Positions 24,253 through 39,987 of a DNA stretch of 47,431 bases are shown here, in pieces. Source of the stretch: Chitinophaga pinensis. GTDB taxonomy: Bacteria; Bacteroidota; Bacteroidia; SXHM01. Position 1 is the first letter of the stretch, and the number at the start of each line of letters is the position of its first letter. The translations under genes were made by a program, and so were the position numbers. The stretch covers positions 1-47,431 of the forward strand of contig CAMDBK010000003.1 of NCBI GenBank assembly GCA_945889235.1. The letters run 5' to 3'. The notes under the pieces are model-generated. The model saw only the letters and a list, made by a program, of their open reading frames with translations. It was not told the DNA's origin and made no database searches.

Positions 24253-24287
24253 ACCACTAAGGCACAAAGAACACAAAGATGCACTAA
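24253..24287 (+). repeat. Short degenerate CAC(T/A)AAG tandem element
   Basis: ACCACTAAGGCACAAAGAACACAAAGATGCACTAA, period about 8-10 nt, upstream of the PorP/SprF gene. Confidence 0.6.
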
Positions 24288-24297
24288 TAAGAAAAAA

Positions 24298-27748: not shown

Positions 27749-27820
27749 TCTCGCAAAGCCGCAAAGAGCGCAAAGCGAAAAATTGTGCAGAAACTTTGCG
27801 ACCTTTGCGCCTCTGCGAGA
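27749..27820. repeat. Imperfect inverted repeat with (CGCAAAG)n and (CTTTGCG)n arms
   Basis: TCTCGCAAAGCCGCAAAGAGCGCAAAG ... CTTTGCGACCTTTGCGCCTCTGCGAGA; 27-nt arms with an 18-nt loop, filling the adk-obgE gap. Confidence 0.8.
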
Positions 27821-28841: not shown

Positions 28842-28901
28842 GCCACGAATTACACTAATTGAAACTAATTAATTTGTGATAAATTTGTGAAAATTAGTGG
28901 C
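28842..28901. repeat. Imperfect inverted repeat with CAC(G/T)AATT-type arms
   Basis: GCCACGAATTACACTAATT ... AATTTGTGAAAATTAGTGGC in the obgE-ispD gap. Confidence 0.75.
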
Positions 28902-36309: not shown

Positions 36310-38157
36310 TTAATTAATTTTATCACCACGCAATGCACGGTAACGCACGCGGGCTTCAACAGTATAAAGGCTTCCCGGAAATTTCAGTAATAAATCCTGG
36401 TAGAGTTCCATTGCTTTTTCTTTGTTGTTCAAACGGTTTTCAAAAATGTTGGCAAGCATGTAAAGCGCATCGTCTGCAAGTATGTCGTAAAAATAATCAT
36501 CCACAATTTTTTGCAGGTTGCTTACTGCTTCTTCAACATGTTGTTTCTTCAGAAACACCTGTGCTTTTTTGTAGAGCACATCATCCGTTAATGAATGACC
36601 GGGAAACTGTGTTTCAATTGAATCCAATGTTGCCAGTGCAATAGAATCTTTGTTTTGGAAATACAATAAATCAGCGCGGGCAAACATTTGCAAAGGAACT
36701 GTGTTTGTATCAATAACAATATTATCCGAAATCAGCAAAGCCAGATACAGTGCATCGTTGGCAATGAGCTGCGAAGTAGCAGATTTCAGAACATCTAACT
36801 GCGCCTGCGCCCAATCAAACTGCCCGATGTAGAACGAAAGTTTTGCGTTTTTCAGTTTTGCTTCCTGCCCCAGCTCATCGTTCTTAAACATTTTATCTAC
36901 TTGCGAATACAGTAAAGTTGCTTCCCAAACTTCGTTGGTAAACAATAACACATCACCCATTTCTAATTTACAATATGCCAGTTCTTTTTGTCGTATACCC
37001 GGCAGTTCCATACATTGCTGCAAGATCTTTACAGACTCTTCACTTTTATGCTGATAAAAAGTCAGGTGATGCGCTAATCCACGCATTAATCCTACAGTTT
37101 CTTCGTAGCTGCCAAGTTCATCTAAGGTAGAACGATAAAGGGCTTCCAGTTCATCCAGATCGGCTTGTATATAATCTCCTTTTTCGGTAATTTTTTTGTT
37201 CATCACATTCACCAATTCCATTTTTGCAGTGGTGTAGAAATAATTTTCCGCACCTTTTTTTATCACATATTGCAGACACTTGATAGCAGTTTCGTATTCT
37301 TTATTGGCGTTGCAGATATTGGAAAGTTCAATCAATCGTGAACCGTCTTCTTTCAGTTTTTTATCCAGTGCGCGCGCCTGAATAAACGCACCTTCAAAAT
37401 TATTCTGCTGAATATAATGCCATACCAGAAGTTGCGCGAACATCTTGTTGTCAGGGTTTTCCTGCACTTTTTGGATGAGCGCAGTTTCAAGGTATTCTTT
37501 CTTTTTATTGTTCACATCATCTGTGAGTGCAGTCTGTATGGCGTTCTCCACTTTTTCCTGATAAGCTTCATTGAACAACAACGCATCCATATATTCATTG
37601 AACATGGCCGGAGTATCTTTTTTGTATGAATAAACTTCTGCCAGTTCAAAGTTGAATGGATAAATTCCGGTAAATAATTTTCGGCCGCGCAAATAAGTTT
37701 TTATGGCAAAATCATATTCCTGTTTTGCAATAAACATATTTGCTAAATCAGTAATCATTTGTTGATCGGGCTGCAAATATTTTATTGCGTTGTTATATTG
37801 TTTCTCTGCTTCATCGCGCTTGCCCGAAATGTTGTAAATGTTTCCTAAGTCAACGAGGTAGTGGAAATTCTCAGGTTCTTTTTTCAGCAATTTTTTTACG
37901 GTTTCTTCTGCCTGCGGATAATCTTCAAGCGCAATTAAGCAGTTCAGGTAATACGTGTAATGTATTTCGCTTTTACTTTTTTTGAAAAGCTTTTCATAGA
38001 GTTCAGCAGCCTTTGCGTATTCATGATCTTCGAAATATTGTGCTGCTAATTGTTCGTCCTGGGTTTGAGCAAAAGAAGAAAAAGAAATCACAACACAGAG
38101 AAGCACAGAGAATACACAGAGTTTCACAGAGAAAAAATTATAATTTTTTTTACTCAT
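36310..38157 (-). CDS. Secreted tetratricopeptide-repeat protein
   Basis: Signal peptide ending SSFAQ; many TPR units (EQLAAQYF..HEYAKA, LELGD/EMGDVLL, NDALYL, ARVRYRALRGD). Confidence 0.85.
   Translation of the reverse strand: MSKKNYNFFSVKLCVFSVLLCVVISFSSFAQTQDEQLAAQYFEDHEYAKAAELYEKLFKKSKSEIHYTYYLNCLIALEDYPQAEETVKKLLKKEPENFHYLVDLGNIYNISGKRDEAEKQYNNAIKYLQPDQQMITDLANMFIAKQEYDFAIKTYLRGRKLFTGIYPFNFELAEVYSYKKDTPAMFNEYMDALLFNEAYQEKVENAIQTALTDDVNNKKKEYLETALIQKVQENPDNKMFAQLLVWHYIQQNNFEGAFIQARALDKKLKEDGSRLIELSNICNANKEYETAIKCLQYVIKKGAENYFYTTAKMELVNVMNKKITEKGDYIQADLDELEALYRSTLDELGSYEETVGLMRGLAHHLTFYQHKSEESVKILQQCMELPGIRQKELAYCKLEMGDVLLFTNEVWEATLLYSQVDKMFKNDELGQEAKLKNAKLSFYIGQFDWAQAQLDVLKSATSQLIANDALYLALLISDNIVIDTNTVPLQMFARADLLYFQNKDSIALATLDSIETQFPGHSLTDDVLYKKAQVFLKKQHVEEAVSNLQKIVDDYFYDILADDALYMLANIFENRLNNKEKAMELYQDLLLKFPGSLYTVEARVRYRALRGDKIN
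38089..38132 (-). repeat. (CTCTGTG)x4 element inside the signal-peptide coding region of the TPR gene
   Basis: CACAGAG on + at 38094, 38104, 38115 and 38125; encodes FSVKLCVFSVLLCVV. Confidence 0.8.
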
Positions 38158-38716
38158 TGTTTTTCAGTTTCATTATCACCGAATCAACTTCGGGTGCATA
38201 GTGTTGAACAAGCTCTGCCTGTTGTCGCGCAAAATTTGTTTTGGCAGCAACTGCCTCATTTAATATCTGTAAATTTTTTTCTTCGCGGGTAACAAATACT
38301 TTGATGCTGTCCAACGGTTGTGCCTGTTTTGTGAAATCTACTTTCAGTTTATTTACTTGTTCTGCCGCCAGACTCACCTGTTGTTTTATCGTTGAAAAAT
38401 CATTGACAAAACCTTCCAGCGTTTTTGCTGCACGTGCGTAGTTATCAATTACCAATGCAGTTTCACGGCTCATTGTATCTTTGAAATTGAAGTTGATAAA
38501 TTCCACATTCTGTTTTGCTTCAACACATAAATTTTTCCAACTTTCTGTTTCAACTCCTGTTATTTCTGCTTCTGCTTCCCACGCATTAAGTGCTAATGAA
38601 TCTAACGTCTGTTCGGTTGGTTTAGTATCGGGTTTGCAGGAATTCAGCAATAAATTTCCGACAAGAAGAGTAAAAATAAATTTACCGCAAAGACGCAAAG
38701 GCGCTAAGTTTTTCAT
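38150..38716 (-). CDS. Lipoprotein, predicted coiled-coil/helical, function unknown
   Basis: Lipobox LLLNSC; heptad-rich body; TAATG coupling to serS. Confidence 0.7.
   Translation of the reverse strand: MKNLAPLRLCGKFIFTLLVGNLLLNSCKPDTKPTEQTLDSLALNAWEAEAEITGVETESWKNLCVEAKQNVEFINFNFKDTMSRETALVIDNYARAAKTLEGFVNDFSTIKQQVSLAAEQVNKLKVDFTKQAQPLDSIKVFVTREEKNLQILNEAVAAKTNFARQQAELVQHYAPEVDSVIMKLKNNE
38684..38708 (-). repeat. (CTTTGCG)n arm inside the lipoprotein signal peptide
   Basis: Minus strand CTTAGCGCCTTTGCGTCTTTGCGGT, encoding LAPLRLCG; same core as the right arm at 27794-27820. Confidence 0.75.
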
Positions 38717-39987
38717 TAGTCAATTCTGTCAAAACCGATGTAAGGCTGCAGCACCGCAGGAATTTTTATTCCATTTTCGTCCTGATTGTTTTCAAGCAAT
38801 GATGCTACAATACGCGGCAGAGCCAACGCACTTCCGTTTAAGGTATGGCAGAGTTGTGTTTTTCCGTTACTGTCTTTATAGCGCAGTTTCAAACGGTTTG
38901 CCTGAAACGTTTCAAAGTTCGAAACTGAACTTACTTCCAGCCACATTTTCTGTGCAGCAGAAAAAACTTCAAAGTCGTAAGTCATGGCAGATGCAAAGCC
39001 CATATCACCTCCACAGAGTTTCAATACGCGGAAAGGCAAATCCAATTTCTTCAAAATTCCTGCAACATAGTCACGCATTTGTTCCAACGTTTCATAAGAT
39101 TTCTCTGGCAACTGTATTTGAACAATTTCCACTTTATCAAACTGATGAAGGCGGTTCAAACCTTTCACATCTTTCCCGTAAGAACCTGCTTCTCTGCGGA
39201 AACAAGGCGTATAACCCGTTTGCTTAATCGGTAAATCTTCGGACTTATAAATCAAATCACGATGCAAATTGGTAATAGGAACTTCAGCAGTTGGTATCAG
39301 ATACAAATTATCAACTCCAACATGATACATCTGTCCTTCTTTATCAGGAAGCTGACCTGTCCCGTAACCGGAATCTTCATTTACTAAAAGCGGTGGCTGC
39401 ACCTCTCCATAACCTGCTTTTGTTGCTTCATCTAAGAAAAAATTAATCAGAGCGCGTTGCAGTTTTGCACCTTTTCCTTTGTAAACAGGAAAACCGGCAC
39501 CCGTAATTTTTACGCCTAATTTAAAATCAATCAGATCGAATTTATCAGCCAGCTCCCAATGAGGAATTGCTTTTGCGTGAAGCGTTGGAACTTCACCAAC
39601 GGTTTCTACTGTTTCATTGTCTTCTGCACTTTTCCCTTTTGGAACACTTTGATGCGGTGCATTCGGAATTTGTAAAAGCAACTTGCGCAGTTCAGCTTCC
39701 GTTTCTGAAAGTTGTGTTGTTAACTGACCTGATTGTTCTTTCAGCGCGGCAGTTTTTTCTTTCAGTGCAGTGGCTTCAGCGGCTTTACCACTTTTAAATA
39801 AATCACCAATTTGTTTGGCAATTGCATTTTGCTGTGCCAGTAAATCATCATTCAGTGTTTGAATTTCGCGTCTTTTAGTATCGGTTTGCAGAATGTTTTC
39901 AAGTTGCTGCGTTGCATCAAAATTGCGTTTGGCAAGGCGCGCAATTACTTCTTCTTTATTGTCGCGGATGTAGGCTGTCTGTAACAT
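38716..39987 (-). CDS. serS: Seryl-tRNA synthetase
   Basis: N-terminal coiled arm, IPNAPH, GAGFPVYKG, LIPTAEVP, CFRREAGSYGKD..GLNRLHQFDKVE, EVSSVSNF..FQANR, TLNGSALA. Confidence 0.97.
   Translation of the reverse strand: MLQTAYIRDNKEEVIARLAKRNFDATQQLENILQTDTKRREIQTLNDDLLAQQNAIAKQIGDLFKSGKAAEATALKEKTAALKEQSGQLTTQLSETEAELRKLLLQIPNAPHQSVPKGKSAEDNETVETVGEVPTLHAKAIPHWELADKFDLIDFKLGVKITGAGFPVYKGKGAKLQRALINFFLDEATKAGYGEVQPPLLVNEDSGYGTGQLPDKEGQMYHVGVDNLYLIPTAEVPITNLHRDLIYKSEDLPIKQTGYTPCFRREAGSYGKDVKGLNRLHQFDKVEIVQIQLPEKSYETLEQMRDYVAGILKKLDLPFRVLKLCGGDMGFASAMTYDFEVFSAAQKMWLEVSSVSNFETFQANRLKLRYKDSNGKTQLCHTLNGSALALPRIVASLLENNQDENGIKIPAVLQPYIGFDRID

What the first reader, a model, noticed from the sequence alone, without database searches (positions are those of the whole stretch)
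38089..38708. Repeat arms co-opted as signal-peptide sequence in two adjacent genes
Seen: the (CTCTGTG)4 arm encodes the hydrophobic core FSVKLCVFSVLLCVV of the TPR protein's signal peptide. The (CTTTGCG)n arm encodes LAPLRLCG in the n-region of the upstream lipoprotein's signal peptide. Both are the pyrimidine-rich arm in the sense orientation, which yields mostly L/C/V/F/S/A. Inference: signal peptides are permissive landing sites for, or are rebuilt from, these elements. This would be a route by which repeats create or retune secretion signals.
Basis: partly seen in the sequence, partly recalled or inferred. Interest (0 to 1): 0.62.

Follow-up and report, generated by a model that had tools for sequence, protein, structure and literature searches.

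The report
Repeat arrays translated into signal peptides
Two neighbouring genes for exported proteins in an uncultured freshwater Bacteroidota bacterium carry short 7-base repeat arrays, normally found between genes, inside their start regions, where the arrays are read as part of the disposable export signal; the same occurs in at least seven more genes of this genome.

Summary
On the minus strand, four CTCTGTG units (spaced 10, 11 and 10 nt, not contiguous) encode residues 9-22 of the TPR protein's signal peptide. Three units (CTTAGCG, CTTTGCG, CTTTGCG; 8-nt period) encode LAPLRLCG of the lipoprotein's.

- **Family membership.** Both are one-armed members of a genome-wide family: 139 arms against 4 in a control. 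Most sit at gene junctions, often as hairpins.
- **Translation.** Both start codons overlap the upstream stop codon and are conserved. The frame stays open in all 13 related sequences examined.
- **Orthologs.** Close relatives of the lipoprotein have a plain, repeat-free signal peptide at the same ATG. TPR orthologs carry different arm versions at the same site. Distant orthologs have ordinary signals.
- **Other genes.** At least seven more exported-protein genes here carry such arms. In two gene families the whole signal peptide is a two-armed element in every congener.
- **Why signal peptides.** CTTTGCG-type arms are almost stop-free: the pyrimidine arm reads as hydrophobic, the purine arm as basic.

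No case of a secretion signal created from nothing was found. The heptamer cores are conserved beyond what the coding needs, which remains unexplained. This is a new variant of a known kind: single cases of repeat-derived signal peptides have been published.

The parts
38094..38131 (-). One-armed repeat array in the TPR gene: four CTCTGTG units with spacers AAA, TATT, CTT. It encodes residues 9-22 (FSVKLCVFSVLLCV), the hydrophobic core of the signal peptide.
   Evidence: The same array is present in orthologs L001, L002, L007 and L105. The canonical 3 x 8-nt form (CTCTGCGT)x3-GTG sits at the same site in L004 and L106, and CTCTGTG/CTTTGTG/CTCTGTG in L107. Core sites are 26/28 invariant against 5/10 for spacer sites.
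38681..38708 (-). One-armed repeat array in the lipoprotein gene: CTTAGCG-C-CTTTGCG-T-CTTTGCG plus the family's usual GGTAAA end. It encodes L4-APLRLC-G11 (then K12) in the n-region.
   Evidence: It is near-identical to intergenic family members such as C24:11099 CTTAGCGCCCTTTGCGTCTTTGCGgtgaaaac. It is absent from 5 congeneric orthologs and present in 5 other lineages.
38068..38157 (-). Signal-peptide coding region of the TPR protein (MSKKNYNFFSVKLCVFSVLLCVVISFSSFA | QTQDEQ). The ATG overlaps the lipoprotein stop.
   Evidence: The SFAQTQDEQLAAQYFED junction is conserved in all close orthologs.
38639..38716 (-). Signal-peptide coding region of the lipoprotein (MKNLAPLRLCGKFIFTLLVGNLLLNS | C, lipobox Cys27). 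The ATG overlaps the serS stop (TAATG).
36310..38157 (-). Gene for a 615-aa exported TPR-repeat protein.
   Evidence: TPR_14, TPR_16, TPR_19 and others; orthologs.
38150..38716 (-). Gene for a 188-aa lipoprotein of unknown function.
   Evidence: no Pfam family above cut-off; 17 homologs.
38716..39987 (-). serS (seryl-tRNA synthetase), first gene of the tightly packed serS-lipoprotein-TPR row.
   Evidence: The same gene order is seen.
27752..27817 (.). Reference two-armed member of the same family, between adk and obg: (CGCAAAG)x3, loop, (CTTTGCG)x2-CTCTGCG. It ends 13 nt before the obg ATG.
   Evidence: fold -33.2 kcal/mol, z -5.6. Congeners carry other element types at this junction.
28842..28901 (.). 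Two-armed member of the CACNAAT/ATTNGTG subtype, ending about 10 nt before the ATG of the next gene (28911, +).
24253..24288 (+). Four-unit purine-type arm (CACTAAG, CACAAAG, CACAAAG, CACTAAT) lying 9 nt upstream of the ATG of a PorP/SprF-like exported protein.

Best explanation
**What the arrays are (shown).** The two arrays are genuine one-armed copies of a family of short 'unit-array' elements. Each has 3-4 heptamer units of the form MTNNGYG (complement CRCNNAK) at an 8-11 nt period. They occur alone or as two complementary arms forming a hairpin.

**Where they normally sit (shown).** In this genome and its genus these elements occupy gene junctions. They usually start within about 12 nt of the upstream stop codon and end 10-15 nt before the next ATG.

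**Why they are inside these two genes (shown).** The lipoprotein and TPR genes begin on top of the preceding stop codon, so there is no spacer. The array lies just inside the downstream ORF and is read in frame as part of the cleavable signal peptide.

**Why this is tolerated (inferred).**
- A signal peptide needs only a basic head and a hydrophobic core, and it is cut off afterwards.
- The pyrimidine-type arms of the CTTTGCG/CTCTGTG kind have no stop codon in almost any frame.
- These arms read as L/C/F/A/V/S plus one Arg.

**History (shown by comparison).**
- The lipoprotein arm belongs to one of two alternative 5' ends, arm-type and plain, that are scattered across the lineage.
- The TPR arm is ancestral to the genus and has since been kept, remodelled or eroded.

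**Constraint on the units (inferred).** Something acting on the nucleotide sequence, either a function of the units or homogenisation, keeps the heptamer cores intact inside the codons.
For: **Family.**
- 139 arms against 4 in the control; 31 pairs in purine-then-pyrimidine (R..Y) order and none in the opposite order.
- The exact CTTTGCG x3 pattern occurs 24 times in this genome and in 14 of 41 genomes searched. The backwards control pattern gave 0-1 hits.

**Junction position.**
- Distance from the Y-arm end to the ATG has a mode of 10 nt, and 22 of 51 cases lie at 10-15 nt.
- Median distance from the upstream stop to the element is 12 nt.

**Translation.** The ATGs are conserved and overlap the upstream stops. 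The frames are open in WIN, L001-L005, L007 and L105-L110.

**Orthologs.**
- Plain lipoprotein signal peptides without an arm occur in 5 congeners.
- Arm-type and plain-type ends are interleaved on the tree of the mature domain. Three arm/plain sister pairs have support 87/87, 99/98 and 94/84.
- TPR arm variants sit at the same site in different lineages. Distant TPR orthologs have plain signals.

**Other genes.**
- C127: empty site in 5 species, filled in 2.
- C194: empty in 4 species, filled in 3.
- C19: a different element in each species group.
- C214 and C13: the whole signal peptide is a two-armed element in 7-8 species.

**Enrichment.** At least 3 units occur in the first 150 nt of 7 of 998 signal-peptide-like ORFs, against 2 of 1490 others. 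Both of those two are doubtful.

**Coding compatibility.** CTTTGCG-type Y frames are open in 136 of 147 cases, with mean hydropathy +1.56. R frames are open in 137 of 147, with hydropathy -2.15 and net charge +3.1. ATTAGTG-type arms are open in only 23 of 72 frames and are never found in genes.

**Core conservation.** Core sites are 26/28 invariant, against 5/10 for spacers (p = 0.008). Third codon positions of the mature region are 101/220 invariant (p = 1e-6).
Against: - There is no direct evidence of translation, export or cleavage.
- Signal-peptide calls rest on my own hydropathy heuristic and on lipobox or AXA-like motifs, not on SignalP.
- Gene calls for the genome-wide statistics are simple longest-ORF calls.
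- How the elements arise or move is unknown. No target-site duplication is visible at the one clean filled/empty site (C127).
- In another family of the class (G032), 30 of 38 copies of a related element were examined and none lies in a signal peptide. The phenomenon is therefore lineage-dependent.
- The core-conservation statistics rest on four sequences and 38 sites.
Confidence: 0.8

Rival explanations
1. **Functional cis-element hosted by the signal peptide (dual coding).** The unit arrays would be binding sites or structures needed at gene junctions, for example for mRNA processing, mRNA stability or re-initiation. They would be kept by selection, and the signal peptide would be the only coding sequence able to carry them. 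This overlaps with the main explanation and differs only in claiming a function.
For: - Heptamer cores are conserved beyond coding needs. Heptamer third codon positions are 9/10 invariant, against 46% in the mature region.
- In six lipoprotein lineages only core positions 3, 4 and 6 vary. Those are exactly the variable positions of the family pattern.
- Single intergenic arms point in sense direction toward a gene start 29 times, against 10 toward a gene end.
- Spacing to start and stop codons is fixed.
- Two-armed elements inside signal peptides keep strong hairpins (-27 to -52 kcal/mol) while the unit type changes in both arms.
Against: - Many orthologs do without the arm: the plain lipoprotein ends, and the eroded TPR arms in L003 and L005.
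- The same junction carries unrelated element types in congeners.
- No trans-factor was identified and no Rfam family matches.
- The focal arms are unstructured.
Confidence: 0.35
2. **Local slippage.** The periodicity would have arisen in place by replication slippage within low-complexity hydrophobic codons. It would have nothing to do with the intergenic elements.
For: Signal-peptide cores are low-complexity and tolerate duplications. The window's TPR array has an unusual 10/11-nt period and no canonical end.
Against: - The lipoprotein arm matches intergenic family members, including the GGTAAA end.
- TPR orthologs carry the canonical 3 x 8-nt arm with a GGTG/GGTT end at the same site.
- The same TTCTCTGTGAAACTCTGTG module occurs in signal peptides of unrelated genes of congeners, there with a partner arm.
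- Whole two-armed elements sit in other signal peptides.
Confidence: 0.06
3. **Phase-variation switch.** Gain or loss of an 8-nt or 10-nt unit would shift the frame and turn the exported protein on or off. Neisseria opa CTCTT repeats in the leader-peptide region work this way.
For: The arrays lie in 5' coding regions of surface or exported proteins. One unit is not a multiple of three. L004 and L106 carry a perfect (CTCTGCGT)x3.
Against: - There are only 3-4 units, and in most copies the spacers differ, which disfavours slipped pairing.
- All 13 TPR and lipoprotein alleles examined are in frame.
- Unit number is 3 in all six arm-type lipoprotein alleles.
- The same arrays are common in front of housekeeping genes.
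Confidence: 0.06
4. **Not translated.** The true starts would lie downstream, or the ORF 5' ends would be gene-calling artefacts, so the arms would be 5' UTR as in most other genes.
For: In most genes the arm is untranslated and ends 10-15 nt before the ATG. For some ORFs that read through an arm, the real start is clearly downstream (C9, C166, C108, C223).
Against: - Downstream of the focal arms there is no ATG before the mature protein, and no start that leaves an n-region.
- The upstream ATGs are conserved and coupled to the previous stop codon.
- Indels among 13 alleles always keep the frame.
- In the C214 and C13 families the arm is the only hydrophobic segment.
Confidence: 0.04

Closest known systems
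Enterobacterial small mobile intergenic repeat units (RU-1/ERIC, RU-2) found inside ORFs (Delihas 2007, PMC2759123)
   Same: [quoted passage not shown] Homologs in other genera have unrelated signal peptides.
   Different: Those are 100-170 bp MITE-like units described as isolated in-silico cases. Here the elements are 24-100 nt arrays of heptamer units. The phenomenon recurs in at least 9 genes of one genome. Filled, empty and swapped states occur among congeners, and the two arms map onto the two halves of the signal peptide.
Rickettsia palindromic elements (RPEs; Ogata et al. 2000, as summarised in PMC10969869)
   Same: Short palindromic repeats inserted in frame into protein-coding genes and translated; compatibility with the host protein decides where they survive.
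   Different: RPEs are about 150 bp, encode a conserved peptide and sit in surface loops of many metabolic enzymes. Here the elements are far shorter, lie almost only at gene junctions and signal peptides, and the encoded peptide varies with frame and unit type.
Intergenic heptamer direct repeats (TAACTGA) of Beggiatoaceae, Cyanobacteria and some Bacteroidetes (MacGregor 2015, PMC4679880)
   Same: Short arrays (2-6 copies) of a 7-nt unit, mostly intergenic, in forward orientation a few nucleotides upstream of start codons. They have been proposed as sites for a post-transcriptional factor. The one-armed arrays here show the same position and orientation bias.
   Different: TAACTGA repeats are contiguous (period 7), contain stop codons in forward orientation and are not described as paired hairpin arms or as coding for signal peptides. 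Here units are spaced 8-11 nt, come in several sequence subtypes and are often paired.
Neisseria opa CTCTT 'coding repeats' in the leader-peptide region (my own knowledge; reviews listed, e.g. PMC3960869)
   Same: A pyrimidine-rich short repeat lies inside signal-peptide codons and encodes hydrophobic residues.
   Different: The opa repeats are perfect, numerous and variable in number, and they switch the frame. Here there are 3-4 units with differing spacers, always in frame in 13 alleles.
REP / BIME and GTAG- or CGTC-tagged palindromic repeats (Di Nocera et al. 2013, PMC3733652)
   Same: High-copy short imperfect palindromes at gene ends and junctions.
   Different: The arms carry no GTAG or CGTC tag and are internally triplicated. 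The genome's one clear Y1-transposase (RAYT-like) gene is flanked by a different palindrome.

Membership tests
Unit-array junction elements of this genome (CRCNNAK / MTNNGYG arms) | At least 3 units matching MTNNGYG at a 7-12 nt period | tested here: met
   TPR: 4 units at 10/11/10 nt. Lipoprotein: 3 units at 8 nt.
Unit-array junction elements of this genome (CRCNNAK / MTNNGYG arms) | Canonical outer end (GCG/GTG followed by GT or AG and an A-rich tail) | tested here: met
   Lipoprotein: CTTTGCG-GTAAA. The window's TPR arm ends GTG-TTGTG, which is not canonical. Orthologous TPR arms end GCG-GTGTAA (L004, L106) and GTG-GTTTA (L107).
Unit-array junction elements of this genome (CRCNNAK / MTNNGYG arms) | Position at a gene junction, close behind the upstream stop codon | tested here: met
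   The arm starts 7 nt after the serS stop (lipoprotein) and 18 nt after the lipoprotein stop (TPR). The family median is 12 nt.
Unit-array junction elements of this genome (CRCNNAK / MTNNGYG arms) | Complementary partner arm forming a hairpin (two-armed form only; 55 of 139 arms lack a partner) | tested here: not met
   No purine-type arm lies upstream and the folds are no better than shuffles (z -0.8). The focal copies belong to the one-armed form.
REP / RAYT system | GTAG or CGTC tetranucleotide tag at the palindrome head | tested here: not met
   Arms are flanked by ACC/CTC/GCC ... GGT/GAG/GGC.
REP / RAYT system | Cognate Y1 transposase flanked by the same repeats | tested here: not met
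   The best PF01797 hit (C160) is flanked by CCACGCCCTTCAGGGCGTGG hairpins, not unit arrays.
MITE | Terminal inverted repeats plus a target-site duplication at filled against empty sites | tested here: inconclusive
   The two-armed form is an inverted repeat. At the C127 filled/empty site no clear duplication is visible, and the surrounding signal-peptide codons have also diverged.
Phase-variable simple sequence repeat (opa-like) | Perfect tandem units whose number varies between alleles and shifts the frame | tested here: not met
   Spacers differ within arrays. All 13 alleles are in frame. All six arm-type lipoprotein alleles have 3 units. Within-population variation could not be tested.
PF05635 (23S rRNA intervening-sequence protein) cassettes with unit-array arms | A PF05635 gene enclosed by the arms | tested here: not met
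   The genome has four PF05635 genes. Three are flanked by arrays of other short units (CAAGAAN, AATTACC, GATATACC-like) and the fourth (C136) by a simple inverted repeat. None carries CRCNNAK units and none is near the focal genes.
Rfam RNA families | Match at the gathering threshold | tested here: not met
   No match anywhere in the window, which holds five family copies.
Sec/SPII signal peptides (the host feature) | Basic n-region, uncharged hydrophobic core, then a cleavage motif (AXA-like or a lipobox Cys) | tested here: met
   TPR: MSKK..., core FFSV(K)LCVFSVLLCVVISFSSFA (one Lys at position 12), then Q. Lipoprotein: K2, R8, K12, core FIFTLLVGNLLL, then NS-C27. This is by inspection and a hydropathy heuristic only; SignalP was not available.

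The most novel reading that the evidence does not exclude
The unit arrays would be sequence-specific cis-elements of gene junctions, recognised in trans through the invariant C-T-x-x-G-x-G / C-x-C-x-x-A-G positions. In this lineage they would double as portable signal-peptide modules.
- The purine arm would give the basic head and the pyrimidine arm the hydrophobic core.
- Both arms would switch unit type together.
- Whole 5' ends would be exchanged between lineages as cassettes.

This would explain why arm-type and plain-type signal peptides are interleaved on the tree of the mature protein. It would be a dual code in which a nucleic-acid signal and an export signal share the same bases.
Probability: 0.25. 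Interest if true: 0.8.

Novelty: new variant of a known kind. Interest (0 to 1): 0.64.

Why it matters
Signal peptides evolve fast, and this is usually put down to weak constraint and point mutation. In this genus a substantial part of the change comes from a different source. Short junction repeats are inserted, swapped and eroded inside the signal-peptide codons, and sometimes they supply the entire signal.

- **Annotation.** Start-site prediction, repeat masking and ortholog alignment at N-termini are all affected.
- **Evolution.** This is a concrete case of non-coding repeats feeding coding sequence.
- **Open question on the repeats.** Heptamer-type repeats at gene junctions have no known function. 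Their cores stay intact inside codons where synonymous change would be free. That gives a clean experimental handle: recode the codons synonymously and measure the effect.

Tried and rejected
- **Rfam scan of the window:** no match.
- **Partner arm or local structure around the two focal arms:** none.
- **RAYT link:** the Y1 transposase has its own, different palindromes.
- **PF05635/IVS link suggested by earlier notes:** four genes are present, three flanked by arrays of unrelated short units. Nothing ties them to the CRCNNAK family.
- **Terminator idea:** the elements are not enriched at convergent junctions (7 of 80, against 12% of all spacers).
- **Bacteroidota promoter idea (TTTG boxes):** spacing and flanks do not fit the -33/-7 consensus. 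This was judged by eye only.
- **Second test genome from another family (G032):** 30 of its 38 copies of a uniform ~100-nt CGCAAAG-type palindrome were examined and none is in a signal peptide. The claim is therefore limited to this genus.
- **Literature searches:** I found no description of heptamer arrays coding signal peptides in Bacteroidota. The closest precedent is Delihas 2007.
Full report
**1. Observation.**
The focal stretch lies in a tightly packed minus-strand gene row.
- serS occupies 38716-39987.
- A 188-aa lipoprotein gene occupies 38150-38716. Its ATG overlaps the serS stop (TAATG).
- A 615-aa TPR protein gene occupies 36310-38157. Its ATG overlaps the lipoprotein stop.

In the TPR gene the sense strand reads TTTTTT CTCTGTG AAA CTCTGTG TATT CTCTGTG CTT CTCTGTG TTGTG.
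- That is four units at a 10/11/10-nt period, not a contiguous heptamer run.
- Because the period is not a multiple of three, the unit is read alternately as S-V and L-C-V. The result is FSVKLCVFSVLLCV, residues 9-22.

In the lipoprotein gene the sense strand reads ATGAAAAA CTTAGCG C CTTTGCG T CTTTGCG GTAAA, giving M-K-N-LAPLRLCG-K.

**2. What the repeats are.**
The genome is a 2.98-Mb, 340-contig MAG with 38.7% GC. Its relatives are labelled as uncultured Bacteroidetes/Bacteroidia lake MAGs. Arrays of at least 3 units matching C[GA]CNNA[GT] or the complement, at 7-12 nt spacing, occur 139 times. The reversed-sequence control gives 4.
- Thirty-one pairs are arranged purine arm, loop, pyrimidine arm. 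None has the opposite order.
- By a relaxed test, 55 arms have no partner.
- The subtypes are CTTTGCG (49 arms), ATTAGTG/ATTCGTG, ATCTGTG, CTTAGTG and CTCTGTG.
- The palindrome extends into the flanks (ACC...GGT, CTC...GAG, GCC...GGC), with T-rich and A-rich tails.
- The window's adk-obg copy folds at -33.2 kcal/mol (z -5.6).
- The exact CTTTGCG x3 pattern occurs in 14 of 41 genomes searched in the class. The control pattern gives 0-1 hits.

**3. Where the elements normally sit.**
Using simple longest-ORF gene calls, 112 of 139 arms are intergenic.
- The pyrimidine arm typically ends 10-15 nt before the next ATG (22 of 51 cases, mode 10).
- Between co-directional genes the element starts a median of 12 nt after the upstream stop.
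- Single arms have a gene start on their 3' side 29 times and a gene end 10 times.
- The elements are not enriched at convergent junctions, so they do not look like plain terminators.

**4. Are the focal arms translated?**
Downstream of either arm there is no start codon that would leave a signal peptide. The two ATGs are coupled to the preceding stop codons. They are conserved in six congeneric genomes (L001-L005, L007; 92-95% amino-acid identity in the mature TPR part) and in six further metagenome contigs (L105-L110). In all of these the frame stays open through arm variants of different length.

**5. Lipoprotein orthologs.**
- Five congeners have MRFAAAILFLFTGILFMDSC at the same ATG, with no repeat.
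- A wider protein search found both kinds of 5' end. Arm-type examples are MKNFAPLRLCVKLF..., MKKLAASLRLCVK..., MKNSVPLRLSGK... and MKNFASLRLCVK.... Plain-type examples are MRFVASILF..., MKSAAAILF... and MRTTVPILVF....
- On a tree of the mature domain the two kinds are interleaved. Three arm/plain sister pairs have support 87/87, 99/98 and 94/84.
- This points to exchange of the 5' end between lineages, or to repeated gain and loss.
- At DNA level, all six arm-type copies keep ATGAA(A/G)AA, three units, and (G)TGAAA or GTAAA. Core positions 1, 2, 5 and 7 (C, T, G, G) are invariant. Only positions 3, 4 and 6 vary, and these are the variable positions of the genome-wide family.

**6. TPR orthologs.**
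Distant orthologs (33-46% identity, several orders) have ordinary signal peptides without periodicity. Within the genus the array always begins at the same nucleotide but differs between lineages.
- WIN, L001, L002, L007 and L105 carry four CTCTGTG units at a 10/11-nt period.
- L004 and L106 carry (CTCTGCGT)x3-GTG.
- L107 carries CTCTGTG/CTTTGTG/CTCTGTG at an 8-nt period with a GGTT end.
- L003, L005 and L110 carry eroded versions.

The 4-unit form occurs on both sides of the genus tree and is therefore old. Among the four genome copies, 26 of 28 core sites are invariant.
- Spacer sites are 5/10 invariant (Fisher p = 0.008).
- Third codon positions in 660 nt of the mature region are 101/220 invariant (p = 1e-6).
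- Third codon positions inside the cores are 9/10 invariant.

The cores are thus held by something other than the protein sequence.

**7. The same phenomenon in other genes.** Within this genome, arms lie in the first codons of seven further exported-protein genes (C5, C13, C19, C31, C127, C194, C214). Several more genes carry two-unit arrays (C1:53228, C11, C35, C47, C138). Ortholog checks within the genus gave the following results.
- **C127 (1757 aa).** Five species have MRGLLRALLFLLLPFAASAQ. This genome and its sister G003 carry a whole two-armed element in frame after codon 5.
- **C194.** Four species have a plain signal. Three carry an arm, one of them with a further GC-rich hairpin nested in it.
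- **C19 lipoprotein.** All six copies carry an element, but of three different kinds. One is ATGAAAAACTTTGCGCCTTTGCGCCTTTGCG, almost the same start as in the focal lipoprotein family. Another is a full CACAAAG-type palindrome.
- **C214 and C13.**
  - In all 7-8 species the signal peptide consists of, or retains remnants of, the element: purine arm (n-region, e.g. FTTKALRSLRSTK or FTAKAQRRK), loop, and pyrimidine arm (core, e.g. FLSVLSVLSG or FSASLRLCG).
  - In a few species the element is reduced: only the pyrimidine arm remains (C214 in G007), the purine arm is mostly deleted (C214 in G001), or only pyrimidine-arm remnants are left (C13 in G005).
  - The unit type differs between species (CACTAAG, CGCAAAG, CACGGAG) and changes in both arms together.
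  - The two-armed hairpins remain strong, at -27 to -52 kcal/mol with z -2 to -8.
  - The C13 orthologs of two congeners contain TTCTC(T/C)GTGAAACTCTGTG, the module seen in the window's TPR arm.

**8. Why signal peptides.**
- For CTTTGCG-type arms, 136 of 147 pyrimidine-sense frames are open. Their mean hydropathy is +1.56 and their net charge +0.5.
- For the same arms, 137 of 147 purine-sense frames are open. Their hydropathy is -2.15 and their net charge +3.1.
- ATTAGTG-type arms are open in only a third of frames and are not found inside genes.
- With an 8-nt period, three units pass through all three frames. Every reading is therefore a permutation of L-C, F-A and L-R.
- Arrays of at least 3 units occur in the first 150 nt of 7 of 998 signal-peptide-like ORFs and 2 of 1490 others. 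Those two are a 92-aa doubtful ORF and a loose pattern match (Fisher p = 0.035). With at least 2 units the counts are 20 against 10 (p = 0.004).
- All focal and most additional cases have the upstream stop within 0-10 nt of the ATG. This fits a junction element that has no spacer to sit in.

**9. Mechanism: shown and inferred.**
- *Shown.* The arrays are family members. They lie in frame at conserved starts. Presence, absence and replacement occur among close relatives. The arms are compatible with coding. The cores are conserved.
- *Inferred.* The arms are translated and cleaved off with the signal peptide, and they are tolerated for that reason.
- *Unknown.* How the elements are generated or moved, and what keeps the cores intact. 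No target-site duplication is visible at the C127 site. There is no link to the genome's Y1 transposase or to its four PF05635 genes, three of which are flanked by arrays of unrelated short units.
- *No de novo origin.* Every ortholog without an arm already has a signal peptide.

**10. Comparison with the literature.**
[quoted passage not shown] Homologs elsewhere have unrelated signals.
- RPEs show in-frame survival of palindromic repeats (PMC10969869).
- TAACTGA arrays show heptamer repeats just upstream of start codons (PMC4679880).
- I found no paper describing unit-array elements that recurrently encode signal peptides.
- Earlier AI notes of this scan describe the same phenomenon in other phyla. 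I used them as leads only. I tested on this genus the points I could: the unit type switching in both arms, fast turnover, position at the stop codon, and PF05635 flanks.

**11. Limits.**
- Signal peptides were judged by a heuristic and by eye.
- Gene calls are crude.
- The conservation statistics rest on few sequences.
- The genome is 79% complete.
- A related element in another family of the class shows no signal-peptide copies among the 30 of 38 examined. The frequency of the phenomenon is therefore lineage-specific.

Noticed in passing
L005:2319-2510 (and proteins P0004, P0014): At the same serS-lipoprotein junction some lineages carry a ~140-nt insertion of a different hairpin repeat (AGGTCGCTCCTACGGAGC ... 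AGGTCGTTCCTACGGAAC). It is read in frame and lengthens the lipoprotein N-terminus to 229-234 aa.
   Followed up: no
L109:701-800 (P0012) and L034 (G007 ortholog of C194): A GC-rich small palindrome (CCTGCCTGCC...GGCAGGCAGG) is nested inside a heptamer arm that itself lies in signal-peptide codons, still in frame. This is a repeat within a repeat within a signal peptide.
   Followed up: no
window 27752-27817 and L051-L055: The adk-obg junction carries a CGCAAAG element in this genome and in G003. G004 has a CACAAAG-type version, with all three purine-arm units changed together. G005, G001 and G007 have an unrelated palindrome (GTCATTCCGAACTTGTTTCGGAATC...).
   Followed up: partly
window 24253-24288: A four-unit purine-type arm sits 9 nt upstream of the ATG of a PorP/SprF-like exported protein (24298, +). 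No recognisable pyrimidine arm is left in its signal-peptide codons.
   Followed up: partly
G000 C217:1753-1776 and C48:10286-10309: CTTAGTG-type and CTCTGTG/CTTTGCG-type arms lie in frame in the middle of ORFs. One is a shikimate-dehydrogenase-like gene, with the arm just before the GxGG motif. These are possible in-frame insertions into cytoplasmic proteins.
   Followed up: no
G000 C232:3153-3467, C25:13144-13461, C75:10076-10378, C136:2247-2540: Of four PF05635 (23S rRNA IVS protein) genes, three are bracketed by inverted arrays of other short units (CAAGAAN, AATTACC, GATATACC-like) that end right at the next gene's ATG. The fourth (C136) is bracketed by a simple inverted repeat.
   Followed up: partly
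G032 (another family of the class), e.g. L061, L066, L071: A uniform ~100-nt palindromic element has 3-4 CGCAAAG units per arm and a TCATTAATGA centre. There are 38 arm hits, all apparently intergenic.
   Followed up: partly
L028, L029, L030 (C19 orthologs) against window 38686-38716: Two unrelated lipoprotein families start with almost the same DNA: ATGAAAAACTTTGCGCCTTTGCGCCTTTGCG (MKNFAPLRLC) against ATGAAAAACTTAGCGCCTTTGCGTCTTTGCG. It looks as if 'ATGAAAAA + arm' were a recurrent module.
   Followed up: partly
G000 C160:1331-1672: A Y1-transposase (RAYT/IS200-like) gene is flanked on both sides by CCACGCCCTTCAGGGCGTGG-type hairpins. This is a separate REP system in the same genome.
   Followed up: no
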